64,000 bases of DNA. Origin: Candidatus Woesebacteria bacterium RBG_16_42_24. GTDB lineage: Bacteria; Patescibacteriota; Microgenomatia; UBA8517. The notes beneath the pieces are model-generated. The model did not search any database. It saw nothing but the letters and a program-made list of their open reading frames with translations, and was not told where the DNA came from. Location: contig MGFX01000007.1 of NCBI GenBank assembly GCA_001792115.1, positions 5,265 to 69,264 of the forward strand, written 5' to 3'. Shown in pieces: positions 50,112 through 64,000 of this stretch (position 1 is its first letter; the number at the start of each line of letters is the position of its first letter). The position numbers were made by a program, and so were the translations under genes.

Positions 50112-50783
50112 TCACTCCCGTAGAACTGGATTTTTGAATCTTAAGTCTATCTCTCTTGGCTTGACGTCTACCCCCTCGTATCTTTTTAGAACTAAAGCTA
50201 AAGATGAAATTAGTATTTCACGATCACCTTCAAGAGGAAAGATTACTTTTGTTCCGTCATTAAGGAAAATATATAACGCCCCATTCTCGACGACACCAAC
50301 TTTAACCTGATAGAAAGAAAATAAGTCAGCCAAAATTAAGAGTGCAAAAAAGTTCTCTTGACTAACTTTCTCTCCAACACTCCCGATGCCTTCCGGAATT
50401 ACGATTTGGGGCAGATTTGACGCCTCTTCAATAGAAACTATATACCCTTCCGCATCAACTAACGCAAGAGCTTTCGTGTCAGATCTTACGACTGCGAATT
50501 GGGGCTTCCTTTCTATTAAGTTAACACTTAGGCGATTTGGTAGATAAAATTGGATAGAAAAATCTTTGACTAAGACCTCGTGAGCTAATATTTCGGATAT
50601 CCCAACTTTCGCCTGGTGAAACGGTAGGCCCTCGAGATTCTCAAGTTTAGCAAAGATGGTTACGTTGCAAGGTCCAAATTGACTACTACAGGTTATATCC
50701 CCAATTTTCAGAATTCTTGATACAAAGATGGTTAATACTATAAGAACAAGAACTCCTAAAATTAGCTTTATAACAGTCTTCAC
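50112..50783 (-). CDS. ftsQ: Cell division protein FtsQ/DivIB-like
   Basis: Single N-terminal TM helix followed by a POTRA-like and beta domain. Its position between ftsA and murG is conserved in dcw clusters. Confidence 0.55.
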   Translation of the reverse strand: MKTVIKLILGVLVLIVLTIFVSRILKIGDITCSSQFGPCNVTIFAKLENLEGLPFHQAKVGISEILAHEVLVKDFSIQFYLPNRLSVNLIERKPQFAVVRSDTKALALVDAEGYIVSIEEASNLPQIVIPEGIGSVGEKVSQENFFALLILADLFSFYQVKVGVVENGALYIFLNDGTKVIFPLEGDREILISSLALVLKRYEGVDVKPREIDLRFKNPVLRE

Positions 50784-50784
50784 T

Positions 50785-51915
50785 TTAAACGTACTCCTTA
50801 ATCAGATCGACCAATTTCTTGGAGGCGCCCGTATCCGGGCTAATTTTGTGTCTAGTTTTTAGAGCGAAATAGTCCCAATTCCTGACCATATATAGAACCT
50901 CTTTAAAAAGAATATTAGACGTTAGGGTGTCTTGTCTTAACACCTTGGCAATTCCAAATTCCTCGGCGAACTTGGCGTTCTTCGTCTGTTCATCTTCATA
51001 GCTCCAGGGAATCGGGATAAGAATTGAGGGAATTTTTGTAATCATAATCTCGGAAACTGTATTTGCACCAGCCCGGGCAATAACTAGATCCGCACGCTTG
51101 TATACTTCACCCATTTGCATAGGATCTATTTGGGCAAATATTTGATATTTTTCCTTTAATTCCCCGGGTAAGTCGTGCTTTAACCTTGAAAACTTTTTGT
51201 AATCCATCGGCCCTGTGTGGTGAATCAGTTTAAACTTGGTAAGGAGTTTGGGTAGAACTCCCTCAATTAGGCTATTTATTGTTAGCGATCCTCTTGAACC
51301 TCCAGTTACAAATATTGTCGGGGGGGACACTAACTTATTTTTGGGAGTAACTAGCGAAATTTGGGCCATAGTAGGATTGCCCGTCACAATACACTTTTCT
51401 TGGGGGAAATATTTCATACTCTCAACTCTCGCCAGTGCAATCCTCTGTGCAAAATATGCCGAGTACTTATTGGCTCTACCTACGGCTACTGTTTGTTCAT
51501 GAACAATAACCGGTATCCTCCTTAGATATCCGGCCAAAACTACTGGGAATGCTGCAAAACCTCCGAATGAAAGAATTACATCGGGATTAATTTTAGATAA
51601 TTCCCAAAACGCAAAGAAAAAACCTAGAGGAATTTTAAAGAACGACGGAATTGTCCAAGATGTAAATCGCATCTGTAGCCTCCCGCTAATAATCGGGCGA
51701 AGTTTTACTCCCATTCTGGGGAAAATCGACTCTTCAATAGGCACAACTTTTTTTCCCTCGATGGCACTTTTTGGCCCTATCCAGTAAATATCCCAAAAAT
51801 TAGTTTGGGGGCCTTGCTTATTTAGTTCTTCGATAACCGAAAGTGCCGTCGTTGCCGCGTGTCCACCCGTAAGGACAATCTTTACAATTTTTCTTTCTCC
51901 TTCAGTTTTTGGCAT
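50785..51915 (-). CDS. murG: Undecaprenyldiphospho-muramoylpentapeptide beta-N-acetylglucosaminyltransferase
   Basis: GT-B fold; N-terminal GGHAATTALS (G-loop) and C-terminal GANTVSEIMITKIPSILIP. Start placed at MPKTEG. Confidence 0.8.
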   Translation of the reverse strand: MPKTEGERKIVKIVLTGGHAATTALSVIEELNKQGPQTNFWDIYWIGPKSAIEGKKVVPIEESIFPRMGVKLRPIISGRLQMRFTSWTIPSFFKIPLGFFFAFWELSKINPDVILSFGGFAAFPVVLAGYLRRIPVIVHEQTVAVGRANKYSAYFAQRIALARVESMKYFPQEKCIVTGNPTMAQISLVTPKNKLVSPPTIFVTGGSRGSLTINSLIEGVLPKLLTKFKLIHHTGPMDYKKFSRLKHDLPGELKEKYQIFAQIDPMQMGEVYKRADLVIARAGANTVSEIMITKIPSILIPIPWSYEDEQTKNAKFAEEFGIAKVLRQDTLTSNILFKEVLYMVRNWDYFALKTRHKISPDTGASKKLVDLIKEYV

Positions 51916-52993
51916 GTTTAGAAATATTAAGTAGTATACCAGCTGCAACCAAGATCATGGTTAGGGCGCTCCCCCCATAAGAAAAAAAAGGCAAAGGTAC
52001 ACCAGTAAGGGGGGTCAGGGCGACCATTGAGCCAATATTTAAAAATATTTGACCCCCAATCCAGGAAGCTATACCAATTGTAAGTAGCTGGGAAAATTTG
52101 TCCGGAGCATTTTTGGCAATAATAAGGACCTTTATAACAAATGCTGCTAAAAGAAAAATAACGACCAAGGCTCCGACAAAGCCTACTTCCTCGGCGACAA
52201 CCGCAAACACCGAATCCGTCGCCGCCTCTGGCAGAAAGAGATATTTCTGCCGAGACGCCCCCAAGCCCACTCCGAAAAGACCACCTGAACCTAGCGCAAG
52301 GAGTACCTGCCTTATATGATAGGATTTACCTAAAGGGTCCTGAGTTTGTTCGAAAAAGGTTAGCAGCCTATCTCGTCTATACTGCGAGGTGAGTACAAGA
52401 ATCAAGCTTGCTGTTACCCCTAAGGCCAACGCTCCAAAAAAGTAGAGTAAACTAATCCCTGAAACGAAAATTTGCGCCATTGAGGCGGCACCTACGACCA
52501 GGAAAGTGCCCAGGTCTGGCTGAAGCATTATAAGCCCCAAAACAATTACAAGCGGCAAAAAATAAGAAAGCGGTCCCTTGCCTTTGCTATAAGCTTTCGC
52601 CAAATAAATGGCCAGGCTAAGCTTCACAAACTCCGAGGGTTGAATCGAAACCGTACCAATTACTATCCACCTCCTTGCTCCCAGGGCCGAAACTCCGAGC
52701 GAAGGAAAAAGAACAGCAACAAGTCCTAAAATGCTTAGAAAAAGTAATGGGAGAGCCAACTTTTCCCAGAAAGAGTAATGAATTTTTGAAACAATAAAAA
52801 GAAGAACGAGACCTATCCCCCCCCAAACAATTTGCTGTTTTACAAAATAAAATTTGTCGTTAAAGGCGCTTAATGCCTGGGGCGCTGAAGCATCGGCAAC
52901 AGCAATAAGACCCAAAGCCGTTAAGCTTAGAGTAAGAACGAGAAATGTCCTGTCCCAAACTTTCTTTTGTCTGGATAGACGCAGTTTTCTCAC
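51902..52993 (-). CDS. ftsW: SEDS-family peptidoglycan glycosyltransferase FtsW
   Basis: 10-TM SEDS signature (ATDSVFAVVAEEVGFVGA...LTPLTGVPLPFFSYGGSA); located between mraY and murG. Confidence 0.8.
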   Translation of the reverse strand: MRKLRLSRQKKVWDRTFLVLTLSLTALGLIAVADASAPQALSAFNDKFYFVKQQIVWGGIGLVLLFIVSKIHYSFWEKLALPLLFLSILGLVAVLFPSLGVSALGARRWIVIGTVSIQPSEFVKLSLAIYLAKAYSKGKGPLSYFLPLVIVLGLIMLQPDLGTFLVVGAASMAQIFVSGISLLYFFGALALGVTASLILVLTSQYRRDRLLTFFEQTQDPLGKSYHIRQVLLALGSGGLFGVGLGASRQKYLFLPEAATDSVFAVVAEEVGFVGALVVIFLLAAFVIKVLIIAKNAPDKFSQLLTIGIASWIGGQIFLNIGSMVALTPLTGVPLPFFSYGGSALTMILVAAGILLNISKHAKN

Positions 52994-52994
52994 T

Positions 52995-54050
52995 TCAAAT
53001 TGTAGCCAGCCAGAGTCCGAAAATTGCCAGCATGAGTCCTGCCAACCAAGCTCTGATTACAATTTTTGGCTCTTCCCAACCTATTGCCAAGAATGTGTGG
53101 TGAATAGGAGCTAATGGAAAAATAGGTCTTTTCATAAATTTCCAGCCGAAAATCTGAATAGCGGAAGACGCAGCCTCGATTACGAAAATTCCCCCAATAA
53201 CTACTAAAGCGACCAAGCTTCCTGTTAATAATCCGATAACAGCCAGCGTCGCTCCAAATGAAAGGGCTCCTGCGTCACCCAAAAAGAGTCTCGCCGGCCA
53301 GACATTAAAATAAAGAAAGGCCATCATTATCCCTATCCAGATGGAGATGAATATCGAAAGCGGGGTATCGAGTCTCCCCTGGGTAATTATCAGGAATGCT
53401 AAGAGACAAATGACCAAAAGTCCCGAAGCCAAACCATCAAGCCCGTCTGTGATATTAAAAGCATTCGAAAACGATACTATTACAAAAGCGGTGAAAGGAA
53501 TATACCATATTCCCAAATCGTAAACCCTATCAAATAGGGGAATATGTAAAATATGAATCCCAAGATACCTATAGATCACGTAGCCTATTGAGAGTCCCAA
53601 AATCCACTGCAAAATGAATTTGTGCTTCCTGCCTAGACCAAATGAAAGACCTAAAATTCCTGCGTGGCTCTTCCCAAAAATTTTTACCAGGTCGTCTGAG
53701 AGTCCCAAAAGGCCAAAAGATAAGAAGGTGAGAAATATGATGAAAAGCTCTGTCTTTAGTTCAAAGGAACTTCTGATAAAAACTCCCAAGTAGGAAGCTA
53801 GGGGGAATACCAAGGCAAAAAGCAGACAAACAAGGACAATAATCAAAATTCCACCCCCGACTGGGGTCCCGGCTTTAATATCGTGCAGCTTGTCAAAAAG
53901 CGGTACTTTACCCTTCCTCGGCGCTTCCTTTTTCCTGGTAAGTTTAAATTTATAAAGAAGGTCAATAAAAGGAATTACCAAAACCGAGGCTATGGAAAAC
54001 GAAAATATGATTAGCCCCAGGCCGAGCGATAAGTAGCTTGAAGAACCCAT
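52995..54050 (-). CDS. mraY: Phospho-N-acetylmuramoyl-pentapeptide transferase
   Basis: NAFNITDGLDGLASG and DDLVKIFGKSHAG motifs, ~10 TM helices. Confidence 0.9.
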   Translation of the reverse strand: MGSSSYLSLGLGLIIFSFSIASVLVIPFIDLLYKFKLTRKKEAPRKGKVPLFDKLHDIKAGTPVGGGILIIVLVCLLFALVFPLASYLGVFIRSSFELKTELFIIFLTFLSFGLLGLSDDLVKIFGKSHAGILGLSFGLGRKHKFILQWILGLSIGYVIYRYLGIHILHIPLFDRVYDLGIWYIPFTAFVIVSFSNAFNITDGLDGLASGLLVICLLAFLIITQGRLDTPLSIFISIWIGIMMAFLYFNVWPARLFLGDAGALSFGATLAVIGLLTGSLVALVVIGGIFVIEAASSAIQIFGWKFMKRPIFPLAPIHHTFLAIGWEEPKIVIRAWLAGLMLAIFGLWLATI

Positions 54051-54077
54051 CTTTAGAATTATATTGTACCTAGGATT

Positions 54078-55331
54078 TTAAGACAACCTTGCAATAAGAT
54101 TATCGAGGCCAACACTCCGTGAGCCTTTAACTAAAACTATTATTCCTTCTCTTAAAAGTTTCTTTGCCGGTTTCACTGCCTCTTTCCAATTTGGTACAAC
54201 CAAAACTCTTTCTTGGCCCAAAATTCGAGCAGCCGTGCGAGCCGTAACTTCTGAGGCATGCCCTACACAGATAAGGTTTGCCACGCCAGCCTTTCCAATA
54301 TATTCGCCCAACTCCCTGTGGTATTTCTCCTCCCACCTTCCTAGCTCTAACATGTCTCCAAAGATTATGACTTTCTCTCCTTGGAGCTCCTCAAGAGTGG
54401 AGAGCGCCTCTATGGCAGCCCTGGGGCTACTATTATAAGAATCGTCAATAATGATCGCCCCGGAGGCGTGTTTTATTACTCTCATTCTATGAGGCGGGGC
54501 GTCGTAATTTGTGAGACCATTCCTGATTTTGTCTACATCGACCCTTAAAGCATAGGCTACAGCTGCCGCGGCTAGGGCATTGCCGATAAATTGTTTCCCA
54601 AAAACTGGGAGCGAAATTTTGATTTTTTTTCTAGAGTTTTGATCAAGGATTAACAAAAACTCTGTCTTAAAATCACTAGTAAACTTTTCTTGAGACGACA
54701 TCACGTGAGTATCATTACCAAACCAAAGAGTTTTAGTCTTTGCCTTTCCTTTTAGTTTGGTCAAAAACTTGTCCTCATTATTAAGAACCGCTATCCCCTC
54801 TTTAGAAAGACCATTTACCAGTTTACTTTTCTCTCTGAAGACCCCTCCGGTATCGCCAAAAAAAAGTGTATGGGTGGGATAGATATTGGTAATTACGCCG
54901 ATATCAGGTCGGGAAAGCCACAAGTAAAAATCCATCTCTCCAAGATACTCTACCGACATTTCAAGAATTAGAAATTTTGCCCCCCAAGGTATTCTTAAAA
55001 TTGTGTTTGGAATATTGTAAACAGAGTCTACGCCTTCTTTCGACCAAACAGTTTTCCCAGAAAGATTCAAAATTGATGCGAGCATTTGAATAGTGGTCGT
55101 TTTACCAGCACTTCCGGTAACTGCAATAACTTTAATATCTGTATACCTTTGAAGAATTTTTAAATACCCCCTAGCCAGCCTTCTTTTAACGGGGTGAGCT
55201 AACCATTGCGATATGACGTGTCGAACTATTCCAAAAATATTTTTATTCTTGAGAAATGGAAGTTCAAAAACGTCGTGATATGGAAGTTTCGGTGTTACCC
55301 ACCACTTTAGTATTGGATTAATTGTATTCAT
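54078..55331 (-). CDS. murF: UDP-MurNAc-tripeptide--D-alanyl-D-alanine ligase
   Basis: Mur ligase P-loop VIAVTGSAGKTTT and central/C-terminal Mur ligase domains. Assigned MurF from its position next to mraY. Confidence 0.75.
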   Translation of the reverse strand: MNTINPILKWWVTPKLPYHDVFELPFLKNKNIFGIVRHVISQWLAHPVKRRLARGYLKILQRYTDIKVIAVTGSAGKTTTIQMLASILNLSGKTVWSKEGVDSVYNIPNTILRIPWGAKFLILEMSVEYLGEMDFYLWLSRPDIGVITNIYPTHTLFFGDTGGVFREKSKLVNGLSKEGIAVLNNEDKFLTKLKGKAKTKTLWFGNDTHVMSSQEKFTSDFKTEFLLILDQNSRKKIKISLPVFGKQFIGNALAAAAVAYALRVDVDKIRNGLTNYDAPPHRMRVIKHASGAIIIDDSYNSSPRAAIEALSTLEELQGEKVIIFGDMLELGRWEEKYHRELGEYIGKAGVANLICVGHASEVTARTAARILGQERVLVVPNWKEAVKPAKKLLREGIIVLVKGSRSVGLDNLIARLS

Positions 55332-55333
55332 TA

Positions 55334-56485
55334 TTATCTAACTAACACTCTGGGAATCCTTTCATTTATCCTTGCAATCATTTCATAATTAATTGTACCG
55401 CTTCTTTCAGCCAATTCTTCTGCCGAAATTGACTCCTTCCCACTTGGCCCCATTAAGAGAACCTCGTCCTCAACATGAACATTTTTAATATTGGTTACAT
55501 CCACAACTATCATATTCATCGCGACCCTGCCGACGAGAGGAGTGAATTTGCCTTTTATAAGAACTCTTGAATTATTCGACAACCCCCTATCGTACCCATC
55601 GGAATAACCGACCGGAACAACCGCAATTTTAGTTTTTCTGTGTGCAAACCAGCTCCTGCCGTAGCCTACCGATTCGCCAGCCTCTATCTCCTTTACCTGG
55701 GCAACTATACTCTTCCAAGAAAGAACGGGTTTAAGAATTAATTTCTTTTTTCTAGTAGCAAGGGCTATTTTAGTTTCTCGCGAGGGCCAAAGACCATAAA
55801 GGGCTATTCCAATTCTTACCATTTTGAAATGGGTCTTGGGGTAAAGAATTGCCCCTGCGCTTGCTGCCGAATGAATTAAAGGGGGATGGATTCCATTTCG
55901 CTTCAACGCGGCAATTGCTTTATTTAAATTCTTTAATTGCAGATTAGCAAAACTCGCATCAAGCGTATCCTCGATATTGGCAAAGTGTGTAGATACACCC
56001 TCCAAAAACATCCTCTTTTCATTTTTAAGAATGTGTTTTGATAGCGTAAGCAAAGCTTCTTTCCCCACTCCCTGTCTATTTAATCCGGTTTCAATTTTAA
56101 TGTGCAATTTAGCCTTTATAGGAAGATTTAGATTTACAATCTTATTTATACTTTCTCGGTTATATACGACCATTGAAATGTTTTTTTCTATAGCCTCTTT
56201 CATACGAGAAAGTGGGGTGTAACCCAAAATTACAATTGGTTTATTGGAAAGCTCTCTAACTATTAGGGCTTCCTCGATATTGTCCACGCAAAACCAATCG
56301 GTTGTATCTTTAAGGATTTCAACGACTTCACGGATTCCGTGTCCATAAGCATTTGCCTTGATCACACAACCAATTTTCGTTTTTGCTCCTACGATTCCCT
56401 TTATTTCACTTAAATTGTGAAGTAATGAAGACCTAGAAATCTCAATCCAAGTCTTGAAAGGAAGCGAATTATTTTTCGAGTGCAT
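55334..56485 (-). CDS. alr: Alanine racemase
   Basis: PLP-binding VIKANAYGHG, TIM barrel plus C-terminal beta domain. Confidence 0.85.
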   Translation of the reverse strand: MHSKNNSLPFKTWIEISRSSLLHNLSEIKGIVGAKTKIGCVIKANAYGHGIREVVEILKDTTDWFCVDNIEEALIVRELSNKPIVILGYTPLSRMKEAIEKNISMVVYNRESINKIVNLNLPIKAKLHIKIETGLNRQGVGKEALLTLSKHILKNEKRMFLEGVSTHFANIEDTLDASFANLQLKNLNKAIAALKRNGIHPPLIHSAASAGAILYPKTHFKMVRIGIALYGLWPSRETKIALATRKKKLILKPVLSWKSIVAQVKEIEAGESVGYGRSWFAHRKTKIAVVPVGYSDGYDRGLSNNSRVLIKGKFTPLVGRVAMNMIVVDVTNIKNVHVEDEVLLMGPSGKESISAEELAERSGTINYEMIARINERIPRVLVR

Positions 56486-57497
56486 ATTTAATAATTCTTT
56501 CCAAAAGTTTTGGATAAGAAATTCCTGCGGCGGCTGCCGCTTTGGGTAGAAGGGACATTGGTGTAAGCCCCGGTATTGTGTTAATTTCTAAAACGTAAGG
56601 ATATTTGTTTTCTTTCAAGATGAAGTCCACCCTCCCAAAACCACTTGTCCCAATAGCTTTATAAACCTCAATTGCCAATTGCTGAACTTTCCTAGTAAGT
56701 TTTTTAGATAAACGTGCTGGGACAATTTCCTTAGCTCCGCTTTCGCTATATTTTGATTCATAGTCGAAAAATTCTCCTTTGAGTGGCCTAATTTCAATAA
56801 CGGGGAGAGCTTTTGGATCCTCGTTTCCTATCACACTGACTGTTAACTCCTTACCCTTGAGGTATTCATCGACAAGGGCGATATTCCCGTATTCGAATGC
56901 TAACCTGAGGGCATTCTTAAGTTCGGATTTTTTCCTTGCAATAGAGGCGCCCACCGAGGAACCCAAGTTATATGGCTTTACGAAATAGGGGGGTCTTCCC
57001 AACTCCTTAAGGTTCCGAACCTTCTCACCCCTTTTTACAACGATGTACTTGGGAATAGGAATACTCCTCCCCTTAAGAAGCTCTCGAAATTTTATTTTGT
57101 CCATTCCCAAAGCGCTTGCAAGAACTTTAGAGCCGGTATATTTAACTCCTGAAAGTTCAAGCATCCCTTGAATTGTTCCGTCTTCACCGTATGGACCATG
57201 CATAGCAATAAAAGCTACATCTACCCCACGGGATAAATTATTTGCCCCGGTTATTTCTTTATAGGAAAGTGGTACTATTTCCTTTTTCTTTGACCTCGCT
57301 TTTATAGGGTCCGGTAATGAAAAGATACTTTTTGCATCCGTGAGTCTCCATTTGCTTCCGTCTCTTGAGATAACTACGGGGAGAGGGGTGTATTTTGATT
57401 TATCGAGATTCCTTACTACTTCGCGACCTGAAATCAAAGATATCTCATGCTCGGGTGATTTCCCACCCATCAATACGGCGACTTTCACTTTTCTCAT
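56469..57497 (-). CDS. ddl: D-alanine--D-alanine ligase
   Basis: N-terminal Ddl domain (KVAVLMGGKSPEHEISLISG), ATP-grasp with GSSVG, and C-terminal EINTIPGLTPMSLLPK. Confidence 0.85.
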   Translation of the reverse strand: MRKVKVAVLMGGKSPEHEISLISGREVVRNLDKSKYTPLPVVISRDGSKWRLTDAKSIFSLPDPIKARSKKKEIVPLSYKEITGANNLSRGVDVAFIAMHGPYGEDGTIQGMLELSGVKYTGSKVLASALGMDKIKFRELLKGRSIPIPKYIVVKRGEKVRNLKELGRPPYFVKPYNLGSSVGASIARKKSELKNALRLAFEYGNIALVDEYLKGKELTVSVIGNEDPKALPVIEIRPLKGEFFDYESKYSESGAKEIVPARLSKKLTRKVQQLAIEVYKAIGTSGFGRVDFILKENKYPYVLEINTIPGLTPMSLLPKAAAAAGISYPKLLERIIKYALEK

Positions 57498-58291
57498 AGA
57501 CTTACCTTCTTAATCGAACCACTAATTCTTTCTCCCAAAAACATTTCTGCAACTCCTATAAATCTACTCGTTAAGTCCGTGACAAAATATATTCTTTTTG
57601 CTTTTGGGTTTTCGGGCGCCAAAAGATTCTTTTCCTCTAAATATAAGGAAAGGGAGGCTGCGATTTCTTCGGCGGGATCTATAAGGGCTACCCCCTGCCC
57701 CATAAAGCGTTTTATTTCTTTTTTGATAATGGGATAATGGGTGCAGGCTAAAATTAGCGAGTCAATTTTTTCCTTTTTAAGAGGAGTCAGATATTTCCTG
57801 ATGAGCGCTCTTATTAGTTGCCCCGACGTTTCCCCTTCCTCAATTGCCGGCACCAAAAGGGGACAGGCAAGTTCTATGATCTTACTTTTTGCATTCAGTT
57901 TCTTTATCGCATCCCTATATGCATGGCTTCCTATTGTGCCTCTAGTTCCTATCACACCCGTTTTTCTTAAGGAGAGGGTAGCTACTTTCTTGACTGTAGG
58001 AGAAATTGCATCAAAGACAGGAACCGGTGAAATTTTTCTTACTTCACTCGCCCCCAAGGCAGAGGAAGTATTACAGGCAATTACCAAACATTTAACTTTT
58101 CTTGTGATAAGAAATATTGCATCCTCTAAAGAAAACTTTTTGACGACTTCCTTGCTTCTAGTTCCATACGGAACCCGGGCCGTATCTCCCAAATAAATTA
58201 TGTCTTCATAAGGCAAGGCTTTCTTTATCTCATTTACTACTGTAAGGCCTCCAAGTCCGGAGTCAAAAACACCGATTGGTCGAGCATTCAT
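57494..58291 (-). CDS. murI: Glutamate racemase
   Basis: VFDSGLGGLTV, ACNTSS and CTHYP catalytic cysteine motifs. Confidence 0.85.
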   Translation of the reverse strand: MNARPIGVFDSGLGGLTVVNEIKKALPYEDIIYLGDTARVPYGTRSKEVVKKFSLEDAIFLITRKVKCLVIACNTSSALGASEVRKISPVPVFDAISPTVKKVATLSLRKTGVIGTRGTIGSHAYRDAIKKLNAKSKIIELACPLLVPAIEEGETSGQLIRALIRKYLTPLKKEKIDSLILACTHYPIIKKEIKRFMGQGVALIDPAEEIAASLSLYLEEKNLLAPENPKAKRIYFVTDLTSRFIGVAEMFLGERISGSIKKVSL

Positions 58292-58292
58292 A

Positions 58293-59591
58293 TCAGCCGA
58301 GGGCTTTCACGGCAGATTTAAACTTTCTTCCTCTATCCTTGTAATCTCTAAACATATCAAATGACGCCGCGGCAGGAGAAAGAAGTATAACCCCTCCATT
58401 AGGCGTATTCAAAAATGCCTCCCGAACAACTTCTTCCATAGATGAATTTCCTTTATCGATTATCTTTCCTTTATACCCCGCATTCTTAATAGCAATTCTT
58501 ATTTTTTGCCTTACCTGACCTATCAAAATTACAAATTTTACATTTTTTGCTTTAGAAATTTCTTCCCCCAAACCCTTGTAGTCAAGGAACTTCTCTGACC
58601 CTCCCAAAATTACAGTCAATGGCTCATCAAACGACCTAATGGCGGCAATTGTTGGCTGGGGACCCGTTGCAAATGAGTCGTTATAGAAAGTTATTCCTTT
58701 GACCTTCCCAACCAGTTCGAGTCTGTGCTCCAGTCCCCTAAAAGTCGTTAAAACCTTAAGGACGGCCTCGTCGCTAACTTTAAGAATATCGGAAACGGCG
58801 ACGGCCGCCGCCACATTTTCCCAGTTATGTTCTCCCTTAAGAAGTAGGCTCTTTTTATACCTATCAGCAAGTTGTCTTTTGGAGAAAAAGACTACCTTAG
58901 CTTTGGTTTGCTTCGAAAAACTTTTTGGGGGTTCGTAATCGGAATTAATAACTGCAAAATCGTCTTTACCCTGAAATTTGACAATATTTTTTTTGGCACT
59001 TACGTATTCGCTTAAATCTTTATGCCAGTCGAGATGATCCTGGGTGATATTAAGAACTACGGCGATGTGGGGACTTTCGTCCATATCTATAAGCTGAAAT
59101 GAGGAAAGCTCAAGCACAACCAAACTTTCTTTTTTAAGCTTGGGGATGAGTTCAAGAAAGGGTTTCCCAATATTTCCTGCCAAATAGACATCGTATCCTG
59201 CCTTTCTAAGAATTTCATAAATTAATGTAGCGGTTGTTCCTTTTCCTTTAGTTCCAGTAACGCCAATTATTTTTGCAGGAGATAGGTCAAAAAAAAGTTT
59301 AATCGCGCTTGAAATTGTTACTCCCTCACTCTCGGCTTTAACAATCTCGGGAATATTTCTATAAACCCCAGGAGATCTAAAAATGGTATCGAAATTCCCC
59401 AGTCCGTCTCTTAGATAATCCTTTCCGCAAATTAGAGTCAAATTATTTTTGGCCACACCCTCAAAATTCAAATCCCCCTCATTTTTCCTATCAAATACGA
59501 AAATTTTGGCCCCTTCCCTTAAAAGGTAGTTTGCCAAGTCTTTGCCCTCCATACCAAAACCCAAAATTGCTATCTTTTTATCCTTAAACAT
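58293..59591 (-). CDS. murD: UDP-N-acetylmuramoylalanine--D-glutamate ligase
   Basis: Rossmann N-domain (IAILGFGMEGKDLANYL), P-loop GVTGTKGKGTT, MurD C-domain. Confidence 0.85.
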   Translation of the reverse strand: MFKDKKIAILGFGMEGKDLANYLLREGAKIFVFDRKNEGDLNFEGVAKNNLTLICGKDYLRDGLGNFDTIFRSPGVYRNIPEIVKAESEGVTISSAIKLFFDLSPAKIIGVTGTKGKGTTATLIYEILRKAGYDVYLAGNIGKPFLELIPKLKKESLVVLELSSFQLIDMDESPHIAVVLNITQDHLDWHKDLSEYVSAKKNIVKFQGKDDFAVINSDYEPPKSFSKQTKAKVVFFSKRQLADRYKKSLLLKGEHNWENVAAAVAVSDILKVSDEAVLKVLTTFRGLEHRLELVGKVKGITFYNDSFATGPQPTIAAIRSFDEPLTVILGGSEKFLDYKGLGEEISKAKNVKFVILIGQVRQKIRIAIKNAGYKGKIIDKGNSSMEEVVREAFLNTPNGGVILLSPAAASFDMFRDYKDRGRKFKSAVKALG

Positions 59592-59593
59592 CT

Positions 59594-60550
59594 TTAGTTA
59601 AAACCAATGAGCTGTACTTCGGGTTCTAACTTTATTCCAAATTTTTTCTCTACTTTGTCTCGGTAAAAGTTCGCTAAATCGATAAAGTCTTTCGCTTTTC
59701 CTCCACCTAAGTTTATTATTAGGTTTCCGTGATACTCGGCTATTTCCACCCGGCCTTTGCGAGCTCCGATTGCTCCAACCGATTGCATAAGATACCCGGA
59801 GGGGATTTTACCAAAAATGATTTTATCTTCCGGAATTCTCTTTAGGGACTCCGCCGAAACGTCCTTTAATAGGACATTTTTAAAAAAACTACCCGGGCAC
59901 CTAACTCCTTCTGGATATTTACCCGCCCTCATGGCAATAATTTCTTTACTTTTTGAGACGAGCTCTGAGGATTTTCCCTTGGGAAACTGAAACGTCGCCG
60001 AAAGTATTATCCAACTTTTGTGTCCTTTAAAGACGCTCTCTCTGTAGGAAAACCTAAGTCTTCTTTTTTTCCAAATTACGACCTTGCCGTCTTTAAAAAA
60101 CTTAACACTTTTTAAATGGTCACATATTGCTTGGCCATATGCGCCTGCATTTCCATAGATCGCCCCACCCACAGTTCCGGGAATACCAGCCATGCTCTCT
60201 ATTCCTTGACTGCCTGAACGATTAACGAAATCTATAAACTCCGCTAAAGAAGTCCCTGCCTTGACTTCAAAATGGCCGTTTTCTTTGCTTATTCCCTCTA
60301 CACGATTCACGATTACGACTCCGTCGTAGCCTTTATCACTAACTAGTAGGTCGCTCCCCTCCCCTATGACTATAAATTTTTCTTGGGGGATAAGCTCTTG
60401 CAAAAGTTTTAGCAAAGTTTCTTCTCCACTTACTTCAATAAGCATCTTTGAGGGCCCGCCAATTTGAAGAGTAGTATGCTTACTCATTGGCTCGCTCTTG
60501 AACCCTTTTAGTCTATTTTCTTTAATAAACTCCTCAAGTTTTTTCATCAT
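59594..60550 (-). CDS. murB: UDP-N-acetylenolpyruvoylglucosamine reductase
   Basis: FAD-binding PCMH domain (IGGPSKMLIEV...GEGSDLLVSD), and MurB C-terminal domain with catalytic Ser/Glu context. Confidence 0.8.
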   Translation of the reverse strand: MMKKLEEFIKENRLKGFKSEPMSKHTTLQIGGPSKMLIEVSGEETLLKLLQELIPQEKFIVIGEGSDLLVSDKGYDGVVIVNRVEGISKENGHFEVKAGTSLAEFIDFVNRSGSQGIESMAGIPGTVGGAIYGNAGAYGQAICDHLKSVKFFKDGKVVIWKKRRLRFSYRESVFKGHKSWIILSATFQFPKGKSSELVSKSKEIIAMRAGKYPEGVRCPGSFFKNVLLKDVSAESLKRIPEDKIIFGKIPSGYLMQSVGAIGARKGRVEIAEYHGNLIINLGGGKAKDFIDLANFYRDKVEKKFGIKLEPEVQLIGFN

Positions 60551-63345
60551 TTAATTAAAGCTTCGTGTAAATAAAAAATGTCGCCAGCGCCAAGTGTCAA
60601 AAGCAGATCTCCCCTCCTTAGATTCTTTTCAAGCCAGTTAGCCGCCTCTTCATGCCCTCCTATATAATAGGCCTCCTTATTATGCCTCCTCGTTTCTTTA
60701 GCCAAATTAAGCGAGTTTACCGTGGGATCCTTTTCTTCCCTGGCCGAGGAGTAAATGTCCATGAATGCCACAACGTCTGCGTCGTCAAAAGAGGTGGCAA
60801 ACTCGGCAAAGAGAACCTTTGTCCTAGTGTACGTATGAGGTTGAAAAACGGCGACAATTCTTCTTTCGGGGAACCACTGCCTAGTCGCCGCAAGAACCGC
60901 CCTAATCTCGAGTGGGTGATGTGCATAATCGTCATAGATTTTAGCTCCTCCAACCTCTCCTACGAACTCGAATCTTCTTTTTACTCCAACAAATGCCGCC
61001 AGTCCTTCTTTCGCCACATTTGGAGAAATTCCAAAAAGTTTGGCTACGATAAATGTGGCAGTGGCATTGAGGACATTATATTGTCCCGGAATATTAATTC
61101 TTATATTTTTTACGATATCTGTTTTATGTTTAAGAGAGAATTTTGTAGAACTGGGGGAGAAAGTAACGTCCGTAATTCTCCAGTCGGCGTCAGGGGAAAA
61201 GCCAAATGTAGCCTTGGGTACGTCTATGTCGGAAATTAAGTCCCTTATATTCTTATTATCAACGTTAGCAACCAACCATCCATCACTTGGTACTTTTTGG
61301 AAAAATTCTTTAAAAGCTCTCTTAGTATCGGCAATTGTCGGGTAAATATCTGGGTGATCGTGCTCAATGTTTGTTACGACCAATACTTTAGGGGAAAGAA
61401 GAGAAAATCTGGGGTTATCGTTCACCCCGGGTGAAATTGCAAATTCATCTCCCTCGCAAACAAAGTATTTTCCCTCCTTATTAAACTTTCCAGGAGTATT
61501 TAGGGGGAAAATATTGCCAACCCCTATTGCAAACGATGGGGCTAGATTGGCGCTTTCAAGAAGATGCGCAATTAAAGAGGAGGTGGTGCTTTTGCCTCCG
61601 ACCCCACATACGCAAATTGTATCTTTGCCCTGTGAGAGCATGGCTAAAGCTTCTGCGTGGGTCATAACGGGGATTCCTCGCCTGCCTGCCGCCAAAACCT
61701 CCGGATTATTAAGGCCGCCATGCGCTCCGGTGGTAATCAACAAATTGCATTCCTTGTCAATATTTTTTCCCGAAAAACCAACTTTCCATTTGATTTTTCT
61801 TTTTGCGAGAATCTCGTCGGTAACAAATACTTCCTTCGTATCGCTTCCCGTAACTTTTGTTCCTTCATCGTCAAAACAAAGGGCAAGCGATGTCATTCCT
61901 ACCCCCTTTATTCCGGTAAAATGCACAAGCTTTAGACTCTCAAAATCAAATCCTCTCTCGACTGTCTTAACTTTTCCTTTGAGAGCATCTGCCACCGCCT
62001 CCTGATCACTCCATGGATATTCTTTTGACCCATAAGCCATACTTTTTTCGTGACCCTTTCCTAGTATTGCGACAATATCCCCTTTTCTAGCTAATTTATT
62101 AATAGCATAAAAAATTGCCTCACCCCTTTCTTCAATCTTGTAAATGTCCGTACCCTCCTTCGCTCCTCGGGAAATTGCACCGGATGCCATTTCATTTATT
62201 ATTTTTCTAACTGATTCGCCTCTTGGATCCTCTGCGGTGAAGACGGATATATTAGCTAGCCGTGCCGAAATATCCCCCATCATAGGCCTTTTTTGCTTAT
62301 CTCTCTCACCCGCGCATCCGAATATGGCAATTAATCTTGCACCATGACTTATCCTTACCAGCGCTCCCAGAGACATTTCTAAACCATTGGGAGTATGGGC
62401 AAAGTCTATAAATACCCTAAAACCTCTATTTGTTTTTATCTCTTGCATCCTTCCAGGGAGTTGGGGAAGAGTTTTAACTGCCTTCACTATTTCCGCTTCT
62501 TTTACCCCACACTCTTTTGCAACTGAAATCGCTGCTTGAGCATTTAAGTGGTTGTAATCCTCGGGAAATCTGTTTTCTATCGCTTCCGTCAGCCTTTTAC
62601 TAAGGGAAACGGGGTAATTTACTATCCTCACATTTTTATTTATGAGAGGTTTAATTTTGTTGTAAGAAGCGTCCCTCAGATTAAGAATAGCAACTCGGAC
62701 ATCCAAAAAAAGTTTGGATTTTGCTAAAATGTAGGCGTCGAAAGACTTGTGATAATCAAGGTGCTCATGCGTAATATTGGTTAATACCCCTATATCAAAT
62801 TTAATCCCTGCCGTCCTTTTTTGATCTAGACCGTGTGAAGTTATTTCAAGAACTGCGTATTCACATTCTGCGTCAACCATTTGTGAAAGAATTCTTTGAA
62901 GGTTAACTGTGTCTGGATTCGTAACGTGGAAACCCGTATCGAGAACCTTTCTCCCGACTTTTGCGTCAATTGTTGAAACAAGGCCAACTTTCTTCCCGGC
63001 ACACTTTAGCATCCAGTAGATAAGGCTTGCGGTTGTAGTTTTTCCGTCCGTACCCGTCACCCCTATTACCTTCATTTTGGCCGAAGGATTATGATAAAAG
63101 TTAGATGCGAGCACCCCGAGAGCTTCTCGAGAATCGGGGACTCTTATGTAGGTCGCATCCGGAATAATATCATACTCTCCAACGACTATCGAAGCTCCCC
63201 GGGAGATTGCGTCTTCTATAAAATCGTGTCCGTCGTGATTTATTCCTTTGACCGCAACAAAGATATAACCTCCCTTCACCTGCCTTGAATCGCTAGTTAT
63301 CCCCGAGTATTTTCCAAGTTCCTGAAGTAATTCGTCGAGCTGCAC
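60547..63345 (-). CDS. murE/murC: Fused MurE (UDP-MurNAc-L-Ala-D-Glu--diamino acid ligase) and MurC (UDP-MurNAc--L-Ala ligase) polypeptide
   Basis: The N-terminal half has MurE motifs (ITSDSRQVKGGYIFVAVKG..DGHDFI; VIGVTGTDGKTTTA; HEHLDYH). The second half restarts with a MurC N-domain (HFTGIKGVGMTSLALCF..GTKVTGSD), a second P-loop (GVGGKSTTSSL) and a MurC C-domain. There is no stop or frameshift between the halves. Confidence 0.75.
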   Translation of the reverse strand: MQLDELLQELGKYSGITSDSRQVKGGYIFVAVKGINHDGHDFIEDAISRGASIVVGEYDIIPDATYIRVPDSREALGVLASNFYHNPSAKMKVIGVTGTDGKTTTASLIYWMLKCAGKKVGLVSTIDAKVGRKVLDTGFHVTNPDTVNLQRILSQMVDAECEYAVLEITSHGLDQKRTAGIKFDIGVLTNITHEHLDYHKSFDAYILAKSKLFLDVRVAILNLRDASYNKIKPLINKNVRIVNYPVSLSKRLTEAIENRFPEDYNHLNAQAAISVAKECGVKEAEIVKAVKTLPQLPGRMQEIKTNRGFRVFIDFAHTPNGLEMSLGALVRISHGARLIAIFGCAGERDKQKRPMMGDISARLANISVFTAEDPRGESVRKIINEMASGAISRGAKEGTDIYKIEERGEAIFYAINKLARKGDIVAILGKGHEKSMAYGSKEYPWSDQEAVADALKGKVKTVERGFDFESLKLVHFTGIKGVGMTSLALCFDDEGTKVTGSDTKEVFVTDEILAKRKIKWKVGFSGKNIDKECNLLITTGAHGGLNNPEVLAAGRRGIPVMTHAEALAMLSQGKDTICVCGVGGKSTTSSLIAHLLESANLAPSFAIGVGNIFPLNTPGKFNKEGKYFVCEGDEFAISPGVNDNPRFSLLSPKVLVVTNIEHDHPDIYPTIADTKRAFKEFFQKVPSDGWLVANVDNKNIRDLISDIDVPKATFGFSPDADWRITDVTFSPSSTKFSLKHKTDIVKNIRINIPGQYNVLNATATFIVAKLFGISPNVAKEGLAAFVGVKRRFEFVGEVGGAKIYDDYAHHPLEIRAVLAATRQWFPERRIVAVFQPHTYTRTKVLFAEFATSFDDADVVAFMDIYSSAREEKDPTVNSLNLAKETRRHNKEAYYIGGHEEAANWLEKNLRRGDLLLTLGAGDIFYLHEALIK

Positions 63346-63350
63346 AGAGA

Positions 63351-64000
63351 CTAGTTCTCCCTCCTTATTTCCGCCCCTAACGCCCTCAATCTTTCCTCAA
63401 GTCGTTCATACCCTCTTTCTATCATTTCTACATTATCAATTACGCTTTCCCCTTCTGCTGCCAGGGCAGCCAAGACCAAAGACATTCCGGCCCTAATATC
63501 TTTTGAGTAAAGAAAGTCAGCAGAAAGTGGCGTTGGGCCGCTTACTATTACTCTGTGAGGATCTGCAATAAAAATATTTGCACCCATGGAAATTAAATCG
63601 TCGACAAAAAACATCCTCCATTCATACATCCAGTCGTGGCATAGAACTACCCCAGTAGTTTGTGTCGCCAAGACGATAAATGGGCTCATCAAGTCTGTTG
63701 GGAAACCAGGCCAAGGCCGAGTTTGAAACTTTCGCTTAAGGGCAACTAGCTTGGATGGTAGAACTTCCAAAGAGTCTTTTTCCTCACGAAACTCCACCCC
63801 CATATTCCTAAAATAATGAAGGATCATTTTATAATGTCCCGGAATATAATCCTTTATCGTCACTCTACCTTTGGTAATAGCCGAAGCAATTATAAAAGTT
63901 CCGCCTTCTACGTGATCCGGTATCACTTTATGGGTAGCTCCTTTCAACTTTCTTTTGCCTTTTATTGTCAGAATATTTGTACCTTCCCCTGAAATGTCTA
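63351..64000 (-). CDS. murA: UDP-N-acetylglucosamine 1-carboxyvinyltransferase, C-terminal part (gene continues beyond the window end)
   Basis: C-terminal EPSP-synthase-fold blocks (VIDNVEMIERGYERLEERLRALGAEI). Confidence 0.75.
   Translation of the reverse strand, partial: DISGEGTNILTIKGKRKLKGATHKVIPDHVEGGTFIIASAITKGRVTIKDYIPGHYKMILHYFRNMGVEFREEKDSLEVLPSKLVALKRKFQTRPWPGFPTDLMSPFIVLATQTTGVVLCHDWMYEWRMFFVDDLISMGANIFIADPHRVIVSGPTPLSADFLYSKDIRAGMSLVLAALAAEGESVIDNVEMIERGYERLEERLRALGAEIRREN

What the first reader, a model, noticed from the sequence alone, without database searches (positions are those of the whole stretch)
60547..63345. Single 932-aa polypeptide fusing MurE and MurC
The ORF runs uninterrupted through a complete MurE (N-terminal TSDSRQVKGGYIFVA, P-loop GVTGTDGKTTTA) and then a complete MurC (HFTGIKGVGMTSLA, second P-loop GVGGKSTTSSL). 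Murein ligase fusions are rare. Fusing the first (MurC) and third (MurE) ligases of the pentapeptide pathway is unusual. It implies obligatory co-expression or substrate channelling. It should also be checked against a frameshift or assembly error that could have joined two genes.
Basis: seen in the sequence. Interest (0 to 1): 0.55.

Follow-up and report, generated by a model that had tools for sequence, protein, structure and literature searches.

The report
Natural MurE–MurC fused cell-wall enzyme
One gene in an uncultured Woesebacteria genome really does encode two complete cell-wall enzymes (MurE then MurC) as a single protein; it is a genuine, conserved gene fusion, a pairing absent from the published list of Mur fusions, and probably two ordinary enzymes on a short tether.

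Summary
Window 60547..63345 (minus strand) is one uninterrupted 932-aa ORF. Residues 1-457 are a complete MurE and residues 474-932 a complete MurC, and each half alone passes NCBI's curated cut-off. It is not an artefact. The protein is identical to GenBank OGM15181.1 (Candidatus Woesebacteria bacterium RBG_16_42_24). Five other contigs carry a 932-aa copy with one to three real residue differences. Relatives at 80%, about 60%, about 50% and about 40% identity keep the same frame, and dN/dS is about 0.16 in both halves. Catalytic motifs are invariant in 23 fusions. The gene lies in a full peptidoglycan operon: murA, murE::murC, murB, murD, murI, ddl, alr, murF, mraY, ftsW, murG, ftsA, ftsZ. 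Relatives keep the order E-C-B but put the protein boundaries elsewhere: E|C::B, E::C|B, E::C::B, E::GlmU-N::C::B. A split relative has an ATGA stop/start overlap exactly where the window is fused. The likely origin is loss of that overlap. The result is two independent ligases on a tether of about 16 residues. Direct channelling is unlikely because MurD, the step between them, is a separate protein. This pairing is absent from the published catalogue of Mur chimeras, so it is a new variant of a known kind, of modest interest.

The parts
60547..63345 (-). murE::murC fusion ORF, 932 aa plus TGA stop, GTG start
   Evidence: The translation is identical to OGM15181.1 (P0260).
61975..63345 (-). 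MurE module (aa 1-457): N-terminal, central ATPase and C-terminal domains
   Evidence: NF001126 427 bits, TIGR01085 440 bits; best PDB sequence hit is T. maritima MurE 4bub, aligned over aa 13-460; structural matches to MurE with target-normalised TM-score 0.78-0.79.
63028..63063 (-). MurE P-loop GVTGTDGKTTTA (aa 95-106)
   Evidence: One search gives the coordinates. G98, T99, D100, G101, K102, T103 and T104 are invariant in 23 fusions.
62707..62727 (-). LAKSKLF segment. K209 is at the position I infer to be the carbamylated lysine of MurD/E/F-type ligases.
   Evidence: K209 is invariant. It aligns with the 'kaklhlf' segment of T. maritima MurE. The equivalence to E. coli MurE K224 rests on established knowledge and was not aligned here.
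62221..62232 (-). EDPR motif (aa 372-375) at the position of the DNPR third-residue specificity motif
   Evidence: One search gives the coordinates. D373 and R375 are invariant. It aligns with DDPR of T. maritima MurE. The role of DNPR is described in PMC3829189.
61927..61974 (-). Junction or tether, aa 458-473 (KVKTVERGFDFESLKL). The first part is the natural MurE C-terminal tail and the rest is the MurC N-terminal leader.
   Evidence: The 461-470 block of the model has pLDDT 67. Linker length and sequence vary across the 23 fusions.
60550..61926 (-). MurC module (aa 474-932)
   Evidence: TIGR01082 390 bits, above the 335 cut-off. The Mpl model scores only 179 bits, below its 388.7 cut-off; target-normalised TM-score 0.93 and rmsd 2.0 Å against H. 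influenzae MurC 1p3d.
61573..61605 (-). MurC P-loop GVGGKSTTSSL (aa 581-591)
   Evidence: One search gives the coordinates. G581, G584 and K585 are invariant.
60547..60550 (-). ATGA overlap: the TGA stop of the fusion overlaps the ATG start of murB
   Evidence: In the triple fusion L082 this overlap is erased by a 4-nt insertion plus ATG>ACG.
63346..63365 (-). murA stop (TAG at 63351-63353) and an AGGAGG/GGAG Shine-Dalgarno-like run 11-14 nt upstream of the GTG start
   Evidence: The start position agrees with homologues that align from residue 1.
50785..60550 (-). Downstream genes of the operon: murB, murD, murI, ddl, alr, murF, mraY, ftsW, murG
   Evidence: NCBIfam.
63351..64000 (-). 3' part of murA, immediately upstream. 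ftsI lies further upstream, off the window.

Best explanation
This is a genuine bifunctional MurE-MurC polypeptide of a Candidatus Woesebacteria (Patescibacteria/CPR) bacterium. It probably arose when the overlapping stop/start (ATGA-type) junction between adjacent murE and murC in a tightly packed peptidoglycan operon was lost. That joined the natural C-terminal tail of MurE to the N-terminal leader of MurC. I infer that both modules act as ordinary, independent three-domain ATP-dependent Mur ligases. MurC would add L-Ala to UDP-MurNAc. MurE would add the third, diamino-acid residue to UDP-MurNAc-L-Ala-D-Glu. A tether of about 16 residues, probably flexible, joins them. The fusion gives fixed 1:1 synthesis and physical proximity of two pathway enzymes. 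It does not give direct transfer of product from one active site to the other, because the MurD step lies between them and MurD is a separate protein.

Shown: the ORF, the completeness of both modules, conservation, purifying selection, and the split and re-fused relatives.

Inferred: both catalytic activities, tether flexibility, and the lack of channelling.
For: - **ORF and modules.** One ORF, two full Mur ligases, each above its curated equivalog cut-off.
- **Reproducibility.** The protein is identical to OGM15181.1, whose exact sequence is recorded on 7 contigs. Five other contigs carry a 932-aa copy with 1-3 real substitutions. A sixth differs only in how the GTG start codon is translated.
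- **Family size.** 29 clusters at 90% identity show the E::C or E::C::B architecture, at 80% down to 33% identity.
- **Junction.** The frame is kept, changes are synonymous, and there is a one-codon indel. dN/dS is 0.16 for the MurE half, 0.07 for the linker and 0.17 for the MurC half against the 80% relative.
- **Catalytic motifs.** These are invariant in 23 fusions: both P-loops, K209, D373/R375, R790/R791, DDYAHHP, H837 and R841.
- **Structure.** AlphaFold2 mean pLDDT is 90.8. The C half superposes on liganded MurC 1p3d with target-normalised TM-score 0.93, and the N half on MurE structures with 0.78-0.79.
- **Pathway context.** The operon otherwise encodes every cytoplasmic step exactly once, and the window has no other murC or murE.
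- **Origin.**
  - The split relative L084 ends MurE at ...KGRVLRIER*, with an ATGA overlap onto the MurC start. This is the position fused in the window (...KGKVKTVERG...).
  - The C|B overlap in the window is erased by a 4-nt insertion plus ATG>ACG in the E::C::B relative.
- **Precedent.** The modules of MurE-MurF and MurC-MurB chimeras are each functional (PMC10214165, PMC4803751).
Against: - No biochemistry or proteomics exists for this protein, so both activities are inferred.
- The MurE specificity motif is EDPR rather than DNPR, so the third-position substrate is uncertain.
- The relative orientation of the modules in the AlphaFold model is not confident (pTM 0.58). A fixed interface, and therefore an adaptive scaffold role, cannot be excluded.
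- Fusions recur in several clades. That could reflect selection for tethering rather than passive stop loss.
Confidence: 0.8

Rival explanations
1. Adaptive metabolon scaffold. The fusion holds MurC and MurE in a fixed geometry onto which MurD (and MurB) dock. UDP-MurNAc intermediates would then pass C->D->E without equilibrating with the cytoplasm.
For: - E::C fusions fall in at least 4 separate clades of rough NJ trees, interleaved with unfused forms.
- The same lineage also fuses E::C::B, E::GlmU-N::C::B, E::D and C::D::E.
- MurE-MurF binds MurC and MurD with high-nanomolar Kd, and a Mur complex has been proposed (PMC10214165).
- The linker shows dN/dS 0.07 against the closest relative.
Against: - The linker varies in length (0 to about 22 residues) and in sequence across fusions.
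- Linker pLDDT is about 67 and pTM is 0.58.
- The model does not adopt the rigid MurE-MurF architecture of 8f5d (TM 0.35-0.40, rmsd 25 Å).
- The linker dN/dS value rests on only 18 codons, and it is 0.64 against the triple-fusion relative.
Confidence: 0.13
2. Sequencing or assembly artefact. A frameshift or chimeric join has merged two separate genes.
For: The split relative L084 has the two genes overlapping by 4 nt at this spot, so a single indel could mimic a fusion. No read data could be inspected.
Against: - The full-length ORF is reproduced in independent ENA, JGI, NCBI and Logan assemblies with distinct point differences.
- It is also present in relatives at 80% down to 40% identity, with synonymous changes and a whole-codon indel at the junction.
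Confidence: 0.01
3. One module is catalytically dead or repurposed. For example, the C half could act as an Mpl-like recycling ligase, or the MurE half could be only a structural partner.
For: - The MurC half carries a GIKGVGM motif. It is only about 30% identical to the MurC half of the group-B fusions (clusters named Woesebacteria) and to the MurC of unfused relatives.
- EDPR replaces DNPR in the MurE half.
Against: - TIGR01082 (MurC) scores 390 bits, above its cut-off. Mpl scores 179 bits, far below its 388.7 cut-off.
- All ATP-, Mg- and substrate-binding motifs are invariant.
- dN/dS is about 0.16 in both halves.
- The operon has no other murC or murE to supply these steps.
Confidence: 0.04
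4. Dual expression. An internal start at Val474 (GTG) also yields free MurC, so the fusion is not obligatory.
For: The window has an in-frame GTG at 61924-61926, exactly at the MurC N-terminus, with a purine-rich stretch upstream.
Against: - That codon is GTC or GTA, which are not start codons, in the 80%, 69% and 59% relatives.
- No promoter-like site lies near the junction, and site counts are below shuffle expectation.
Confidence: 0.03

Closest known systems
MurE-MurF chimera of Bordetella pertussis (PDB 8F5D; Shirakawa et al. 2023, PMC10214165)
   Same: - MurE is the N-terminal module and a second full Mur ligase is joined head-to-tail to its C-terminus.
- It is encoded inside the cell-wall operon.
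- It is the best Foldseek hit of the whole model (E 1e-42) and is also hit by sequence.
   Different: - The partner is MurF, the next step in the pathway, so channelling is conceivable there. Here the partner is MurC, two steps earlier.
- 8F5D has a tight hydrophobic, linker-less interface. Here there is a variable tether of about 16 residues, and the model does not superpose globally (TM 0.35-0.40, rmsd 25 Å).
MurC-MurB ('MurB/C') fusion of Verrucomicrobium spinosum (PMC4803751)
   Same: - MurC is fused to a neighbouring pathway enzyme.
- The fusion is a lineage signature and complements both E. coli mutants.
- The same C::B architecture occurs in close relatives of this locus (L084, L004, P0121) and is added to E::C in the triple fusion (P0003-5).
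   Different: MurC is the N-terminal module there, and its partner MurB catalyses the preceding step, so the two steps are consecutive.
MurG-MurC (Actinobacteria) and MurC-Ddl (Chlamydia, Firmicutes) chimeras (PMC10214165; NCBIfam NF011171)
   Same: These fuse MurC to an enzyme of a non-consecutive step. The literature explains them by stoichiometry, stability or complex assembly rather than channelling.
   Different: The partners are different, and MurC is at the other position in the MurC-Ddl fusion.
Stand-alone MurE (T. maritima 4BUB) and MurC (H. influenzae 1P3D, P. aeruginosa 8DOF)
   Same: Each half matches these over its full length, in both sequence and predicted fold.
   Different: Those are separate polypeptides.

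Membership tests
MurE (UDP-MurNAc-L-Ala-D-Glu : diamino-acid ligase; TIGR01085 / NF001126) | Full-length HMM match above the curated cut-off | tested here: met
   The N half alone scores 440 bits on TIGR01085 (cut-off 257) and 427 bits on NF001126 (cut-off 373), covering model positions 22-484 of 486.
MurE (UDP-MurNAc-L-Ala-D-Glu : diamino-acid ligase; TIGR01085 / NF001126) | Three-domain Mur ligase fold with a GxxGKT P-loop and the conserved lysine inferred to be carbamylated | tested here: met
   PF01225, PF08245 and PF02875 are all present. G98-T104 and K209 are invariant in 23 fusions. Target-normalised TM-score is 0.78-0.79 against MurE structures. Carbamylation itself cannot be tested here.
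MurE (UDP-MurNAc-L-Ala-D-Glu : diamino-acid ligase; TIGR01085 / NF001126) | DNPR motif that marks meso-DAP-adding enzymes | tested here: inconclusive
   The sequence is EDPR (aa 372-375). The Arg is kept but Asn is replaced by Asp, as in DDPR of T. maritima MurE, the best PDB hit, which is annotated as an LD-lysine ligase. The role of the motif is given in PMC3829189. The third-position substrate is therefore not assignable.
MurC (UDP-MurNAc : L-alanine ligase; TIGR01082) | Full-length equivalog match above the cut-off, and a better match than the paralogue Mpl | tested here: met
   The C half alone scores 390 bits (cut-off 335.1), covering model positions 2-448 of 449. Mpl (TIGR01081) scores 179.5 bits against a cut-off of 388.7.
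MurC (UDP-MurNAc : L-alanine ligase; TIGR01082) | MurC fold and conserved catalytic motifs (P-loop, RRF, DDYxHHP, QPHxYxR) | tested here: met
   Target-normalised TM-score is 0.93 and rmsd 2.0 Å against 1p3d. G581, G584, K585, R790, R791, D805-P811, H837 and R841 are invariant.
Natural Mur chimeras (bifunctional fused Mur enzymes) | Two complete Mur enzymes in one ORF, conserved as such in related genomes | tested here: met
Natural Mur chimeras (bifunctional fused Mur enzymes) | Both enzymatic activities shown for the fused protein | not testable with these tools
   This needs enzymology or complementation.
Rigid head-to-tail chimera of the MurE-MurF (8F5D) type | Fixed inter-module hydrophobic interface with no linker | tested here: inconclusive
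   The tether is about 16 residues with pLDDT about 67, and pTM is 0.58. Global TM to 8f5d is 0.35-0.40. No PAE or experimental structure was available.

The most novel reading that the evidence does not exclude
In Woesebacteria and neighbouring CPR lineages, MurE is a hub for gene fusion. The set of natural fusions is E::C, C::B, E::C::B, E::GlmU-N::C::B, E::D, C::D::E and E::MurL. These may record the physical neighbour map of a cytoplasmic Mur multi-enzyme assembly. On this reading, recurrent independent E::C fusions are selected because they pre-assemble a complex onto which MurD docks. These minimal cells would then build peptidoglycan precursors on mega-enzymes.
Probability: 0.15. Interest if true: 0.6.

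Novelty: new variant of a known kind. Interest (0 to 1): 0.33.

Why it matters
Whether the cytoplasmic Mur enzymes work as a complex is a long-standing question, and natural chimeras are the main genomic argument for it. The published census (PMC10214165) excluded proteins from unidentified species. It lists MurE-MurF, MurC-Ddl, MurC-MurB, MurG-MurC, MurD-FtsW and MraY-MurG, but not MurE-MurC.

This locus and its relatives add a new pairing of non-consecutive ligases. They also show a lineage where the same three adjacent genes (E-C-B) are cut into proteins in every possible way. That offers natural fused and split pairs for testing whether tethering changes flux, stability or complex formation.

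On the practical side, the public annotations name this protein as only MurC (NCBI) or only MurE (UniRef). Pathway reconstructions of CPR genomes could therefore wrongly score one step as missing.

Tried and rejected
- **GTDB scan.** Peptide-pattern search of the representative genomes found no close fused relative. Only L002 carries MurE and MurC in one ORF, as E::GlmU-N::C::B. The scan depends on exact peptide patterns, so it says little about true distribution.
- **Literature search.** The terms 'MurE-MurC' and 'MurC-MurE' gave zero occurrences. All 419 hits were the unrelated acronym MUREC. A search combining CPR with Mur fusion terms found nothing relevant. The library excludes most subscription journals, so absence there is not proof.
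- **Internal GTG start at aa 474.** Rejected, because relatives have GTC or GTA at that codon.
- **Promoter and terminator scan.** Fewer sites than in shuffles and none at the junction, so it is uninformative. CPR promoters may also differ from the consensus used.
- **Inter-module geometry from AlphaFold.** Not used, because pTM is 0.58 and no PAE was available.
- **Mpl identity for the C half.** Rejected on scores.
- **Second murC or murE copy.** None in the window. The rest of the genome was not available.
- **NJ trees.** These are distance trees without support values. I use them only to say the fusions are interleaved with unfused forms, not to count events precisely.
Full report
**1. Observation**

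Window 60547..63345 holds a single ORF on the minus strand, with a GTG start and 932 codons before a TGA stop.

Pfam finds the N-terminal, central and C-terminal Mur ligase domains twice in succession. I scanned the two halves separately against NCBIfam:
- aa 1-470 score 427 bits on the MurE equivalog NF001126 (cut-off 373) and 440 bits on TIGR01085.
- aa 471-932 score 390 bits on the MurC equivalog TIGR01082 (cut-off 335), covering model positions 2-448 of 449.
- The paralogue Mpl reaches only 179 bits against a cut-off of 389.

**2. Is it an artefact?**

No.
- The translation is identical to GenBank OGM15181.1 / UniRef100_A0A1F7XJG3 from Candidatus Woesebacteria bacterium RBG_16_42_24. That exact sequence is recorded on 7 contigs.
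- Five other contigs from ENA assemblies carry a 932-aa version that differs at one to three residues. A JGI copy differs only in how the GTG start codon is translated.
- One of the ENA contigs (ERZ4903072 k141_254800) differs from the window by 3 of 2799 nucleotides in this gene.
- Among the best 120 homologues in a search of 5.8 billion 90%-identity clusters, 29 clusters have the collinear E::C (or E::C::B) architecture. Their identities run from 80% through about 60% and about 50% to 33-45%.
- Codon alignments across the junction show synonymous substitutions, a one-codon indel and no frame change.
- Nei-Gojobori dN/dS against the 80% relative is 0.16 for the MurE half, 0.07 for the linker and 0.17 for the MurC half.

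**3. Are both modules likely to be active?**

In an alignment of 23 fusions, the invariant columns include these:
- the MurE P-loop (G98-T104), K209, D349/K352/R353, D373/R375/E377 and G429/K430/H432/E433;
- the MurC P-loop (G581, G584, K585), E631, D633, N659, H664, N757, N760, R790/R791, D805-P811, H837 and R841/T842.

K209 aligns with the lysine of the 'AK' segment in T. maritima MurE. I infer that it is the carbamylated lysine; this is established knowledge for MurD/E/F and was not tested here.

AlphaFold2, run on that alignment, gives mean pLDDT 90.8. The C half superposes on substrate-bound H. influenzae MurC with target-normalised TM-score 0.93 and rmsd 2.0 Å. The N half superposes on MurE structures with 0.78-0.79.

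One caveat concerns substrate specificity. The motif that reads DNPR in meso-DAP-adding MurE (PMC3829189) is EDPR here. The best PDB sequence match is T. maritima MurE, which has DDPR and is annotated as an LD-lysine ligase. The third-position amino acid cannot be assigned from sequence.

**4. Context**

The gene sits in a continuous minus-strand cell-wall and division operon:

(ftsI, off the window) - murA - murE::murC - murB - murD - murI - ddl - alr - murF - mraY - ftsW - murG - ORF223 - ftsA - ftsZ

- Each cytoplasmic step is encoded once, and no other murC or murE lies in the 64 kb.
- The genes are tightly packed. The murA stop is 5 nt before the GTG start, and an AGGAGG run lies 14 nt upstream.
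- The TGA stop of the fusion overlaps the murB ATG as ATGA.

**5. How the fusion arose**

Relatives keep the order murE-murC-murB-murD but place the protein boundaries differently:

| Locus or protein | Boundary pattern | Source |
|---|---|---|
| L084 (982-kb contig) | E \| C::B | |
| L083, L086 and the window | E::C \| B | |
| L082 | E::C::B, 1251 aa | |
| P0025 | E::GlmU-N::C::B, 1464 aa | |

- In L084, MurE ends ...FKGRVLRIER followed by TGA, and the MurC start ATG overlaps it (cgATGA). The window reads ...LKGKVKTVERG FDFESLKL VHFTGIKG at the same place.
- The 'linker' is therefore the natural MurE tail joined to the MurC N-terminal leader.
- The neighbouring boundary shows the process directly. 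In the triple fusion, the window's ...AAATGATG... is replaced by a 4-nt insertion plus ATG>ACG. This removes the stop and shifts the reading into the murB frame.
- The most economical origin is loss of an overlapping stop/start in a compact operon. This is inferred for E|C and seen by direct sequence comparison for C|B.

**6. How it most likely works**

The fusion guarantees equimolar synthesis and proximity of MurC and MurE. MurC makes UDP-MurNAc-L-Ala, whereas MurE consumes UDP-MurNAc-L-Ala-D-Glu. The MurD step lies between them, and MurD is a separate 432-aa protein (TIGR01087, 382 bits). Direct site-to-site channelling within the polypeptide is therefore not expected.

- The tether is short (aa 458-473). 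Across fusions it varies in length from 0 to about 22 residues and in sequence. It has the lowest confidence in the model, with a block pLDDT of 67.
- pTM is 0.58, so the relative placement of the modules is not confidently predicted.
- The whole model hits the MurE-MurF chimera 8F5D by order of domains (E 1e-42). It does not superpose globally (TM 0.35-0.40, rmsd 25 Å).
- There is thus no evidence for the rigid, linker-less hydrophobic interface described for MurE-MurF (PMC10214165).
- The authors of that paper make the same argument for other non-consecutive chimeras (MurG-MurC, MurC-Ddl, MurD-FtsW). They favour stoichiometry, stability or complex assembly over channelling.

My best reading is two independent ligases on a flexible tether (confidence 0.8). 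A scaffold for a MurD-docking metabolon is the main live alternative (0.13).

**7. Distribution and recurrence**

In a full HMMER scan of 1.84 billion 50%-identity representatives, about six of the top 150 hits are collinear E::C clusters. Ten are MurE-MurF. The pairing is rare.

Rough NJ trees place E::C fusions in at least four groups:
- **Group A** (P0001-16) contains the window protein. Its MurC is closest to the C::B fusion P0121 and to stand-alone MurCs at 52-54% identity.
- **Group B** comprises P0018-25, P0032 and P0054. The P0020 and P0022 clusters and P0025 are named Woesebacteria. It is interleaved with unfused and C::B forms.
- **Two further groups** have a MurE module that lacks the N-terminal domain.

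Between groups A and B the MurE halves are 52-57% identical but the MurC halves only 29-33%. Either the fusion arose more than once or the MurC module was replaced.

In the MurE tree, E::C, E::GlmU-N, E::D and E::MurL proteins are intermixed. The C-terminus of MurE seems to change partner often in this lineage. These trees have no support values and I treat this point as suggestive only.

**8. Comparison with what is known, and novelty**

Natural Mur chimeras are a known kind. The 2023 census lists MurE-MurF, MurC-Ddl, MurC-MurB, MurG-MurC, MurD-FtsW and MraY-MurG. It excluded proteins from unidentified species (PMC10214165).

'MurE-MurC' and 'MurC-MurE' do not occur anywhere in the searchable library. 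No paper there links CPR with Mur fusions.

The protein itself has been public since the Rifle MAG releases. It is named only as MurC (NCBI) or only as MurE (UniRef). The triple fusion carries the automatic UniRef label 'Multifunctional fusion protein'.

I therefore class this as a new variant of a known kind. The protein is real, conserved and undescribed as a class, but mechanistically probably ordinary. Interest is 0.33.

Noticed in passing
window 62221-62232 (aa 372-375 of the fusion): The MurE specificity motif is EDPR rather than DNPR. D373 and R375 are invariant in 23 fusions. The best PDB sequence hit is T. maritima MurE (DDPR), annotated as an LD-lysine ligase. The third residue of this organism's stem peptide is therefore uncertain.
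   Followed up: partly
window 54078-55331 (-): murF scores 272 bits on TIGR01143, below the 288.6 cut-off, and aligns only from model position 69. Its N-terminal domain is short or divergent.
   Followed up: no
window 50112-50783 (-): A 223-aa ORF lies between murG and ftsA, where ftsQ normally sits. It has no Pfam hit at E<=1e-5.
   Followed up: no
window 55334-56485 (-) vs L083 13871-16109 and L086 6140-8436: alr lies between ddl and murF in the window and in L084. It is absent from that position in the 59% and 80% relatives.
   Followed up: no
P0031, P0034, P0045 and about 50 other hits; P0025 (= locus L002 2280-6848); P0032: Many Woesebacteria MurE proteins carry a C-terminal GlmU-type uridyltransferase domain (GlmU model positions 3-242). 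P0025 is a 1464-aa MurE::GlmU-N::MurC::MurB four-module protein.
   Followed up: partly
P0027, P0029, P0035-P0049 etc.; P0048; P0041; P0129: Other MurE fusions occur in the same radiation: MurE::MurD (18 of the best hits), MurC::MurD::MurE (1330 aa, named Parcubacteria), MurE::MurL epimerase (932 aa) and a tandem MurE::MurE-like protein (979 aa).
   Followed up: partly
L007 5932-7125, L009, L012; P0173-P0195; fused forms P0023/26/28/30/33: One clade of MurE homologues (about 370-400 aa) lacks the N-terminal, UDP-binding domain. It occurs alone, next to a gene of about 240 aa and murC, or fused to MurC. One such genome is labelled Saccharimonadales.
   Followed up: no
L087 12545-15280: A contig carrying a group-B E::C fusion, whose protein cluster is named Woesebacteria, also encodes a MurL epimerase next to a MurD-like ligase. 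This suggests the L-Glu-then-epimerise route to the second residue, instead of (or alongside) MurI.
   Followed up: no
window 60750-61750 vs flanks: GC skew is about 0 across most of the MurC module but -0.2 to -0.34 in the adjacent sequence. The MurC half is also only about 30% identical to the MurC half of the group-B fusions (clusters named Woesebacteria), whereas the MurE halves are about 55% identical. The MurC module may have a different origin.
   Followed up: partly
L084 12147-13022: In the split relative, the gene called at the murD position gives only 291 aa and lacks the MurD N-terminal domain hit. This could be a truncated gene call or a real shortening.
   Followed up: no
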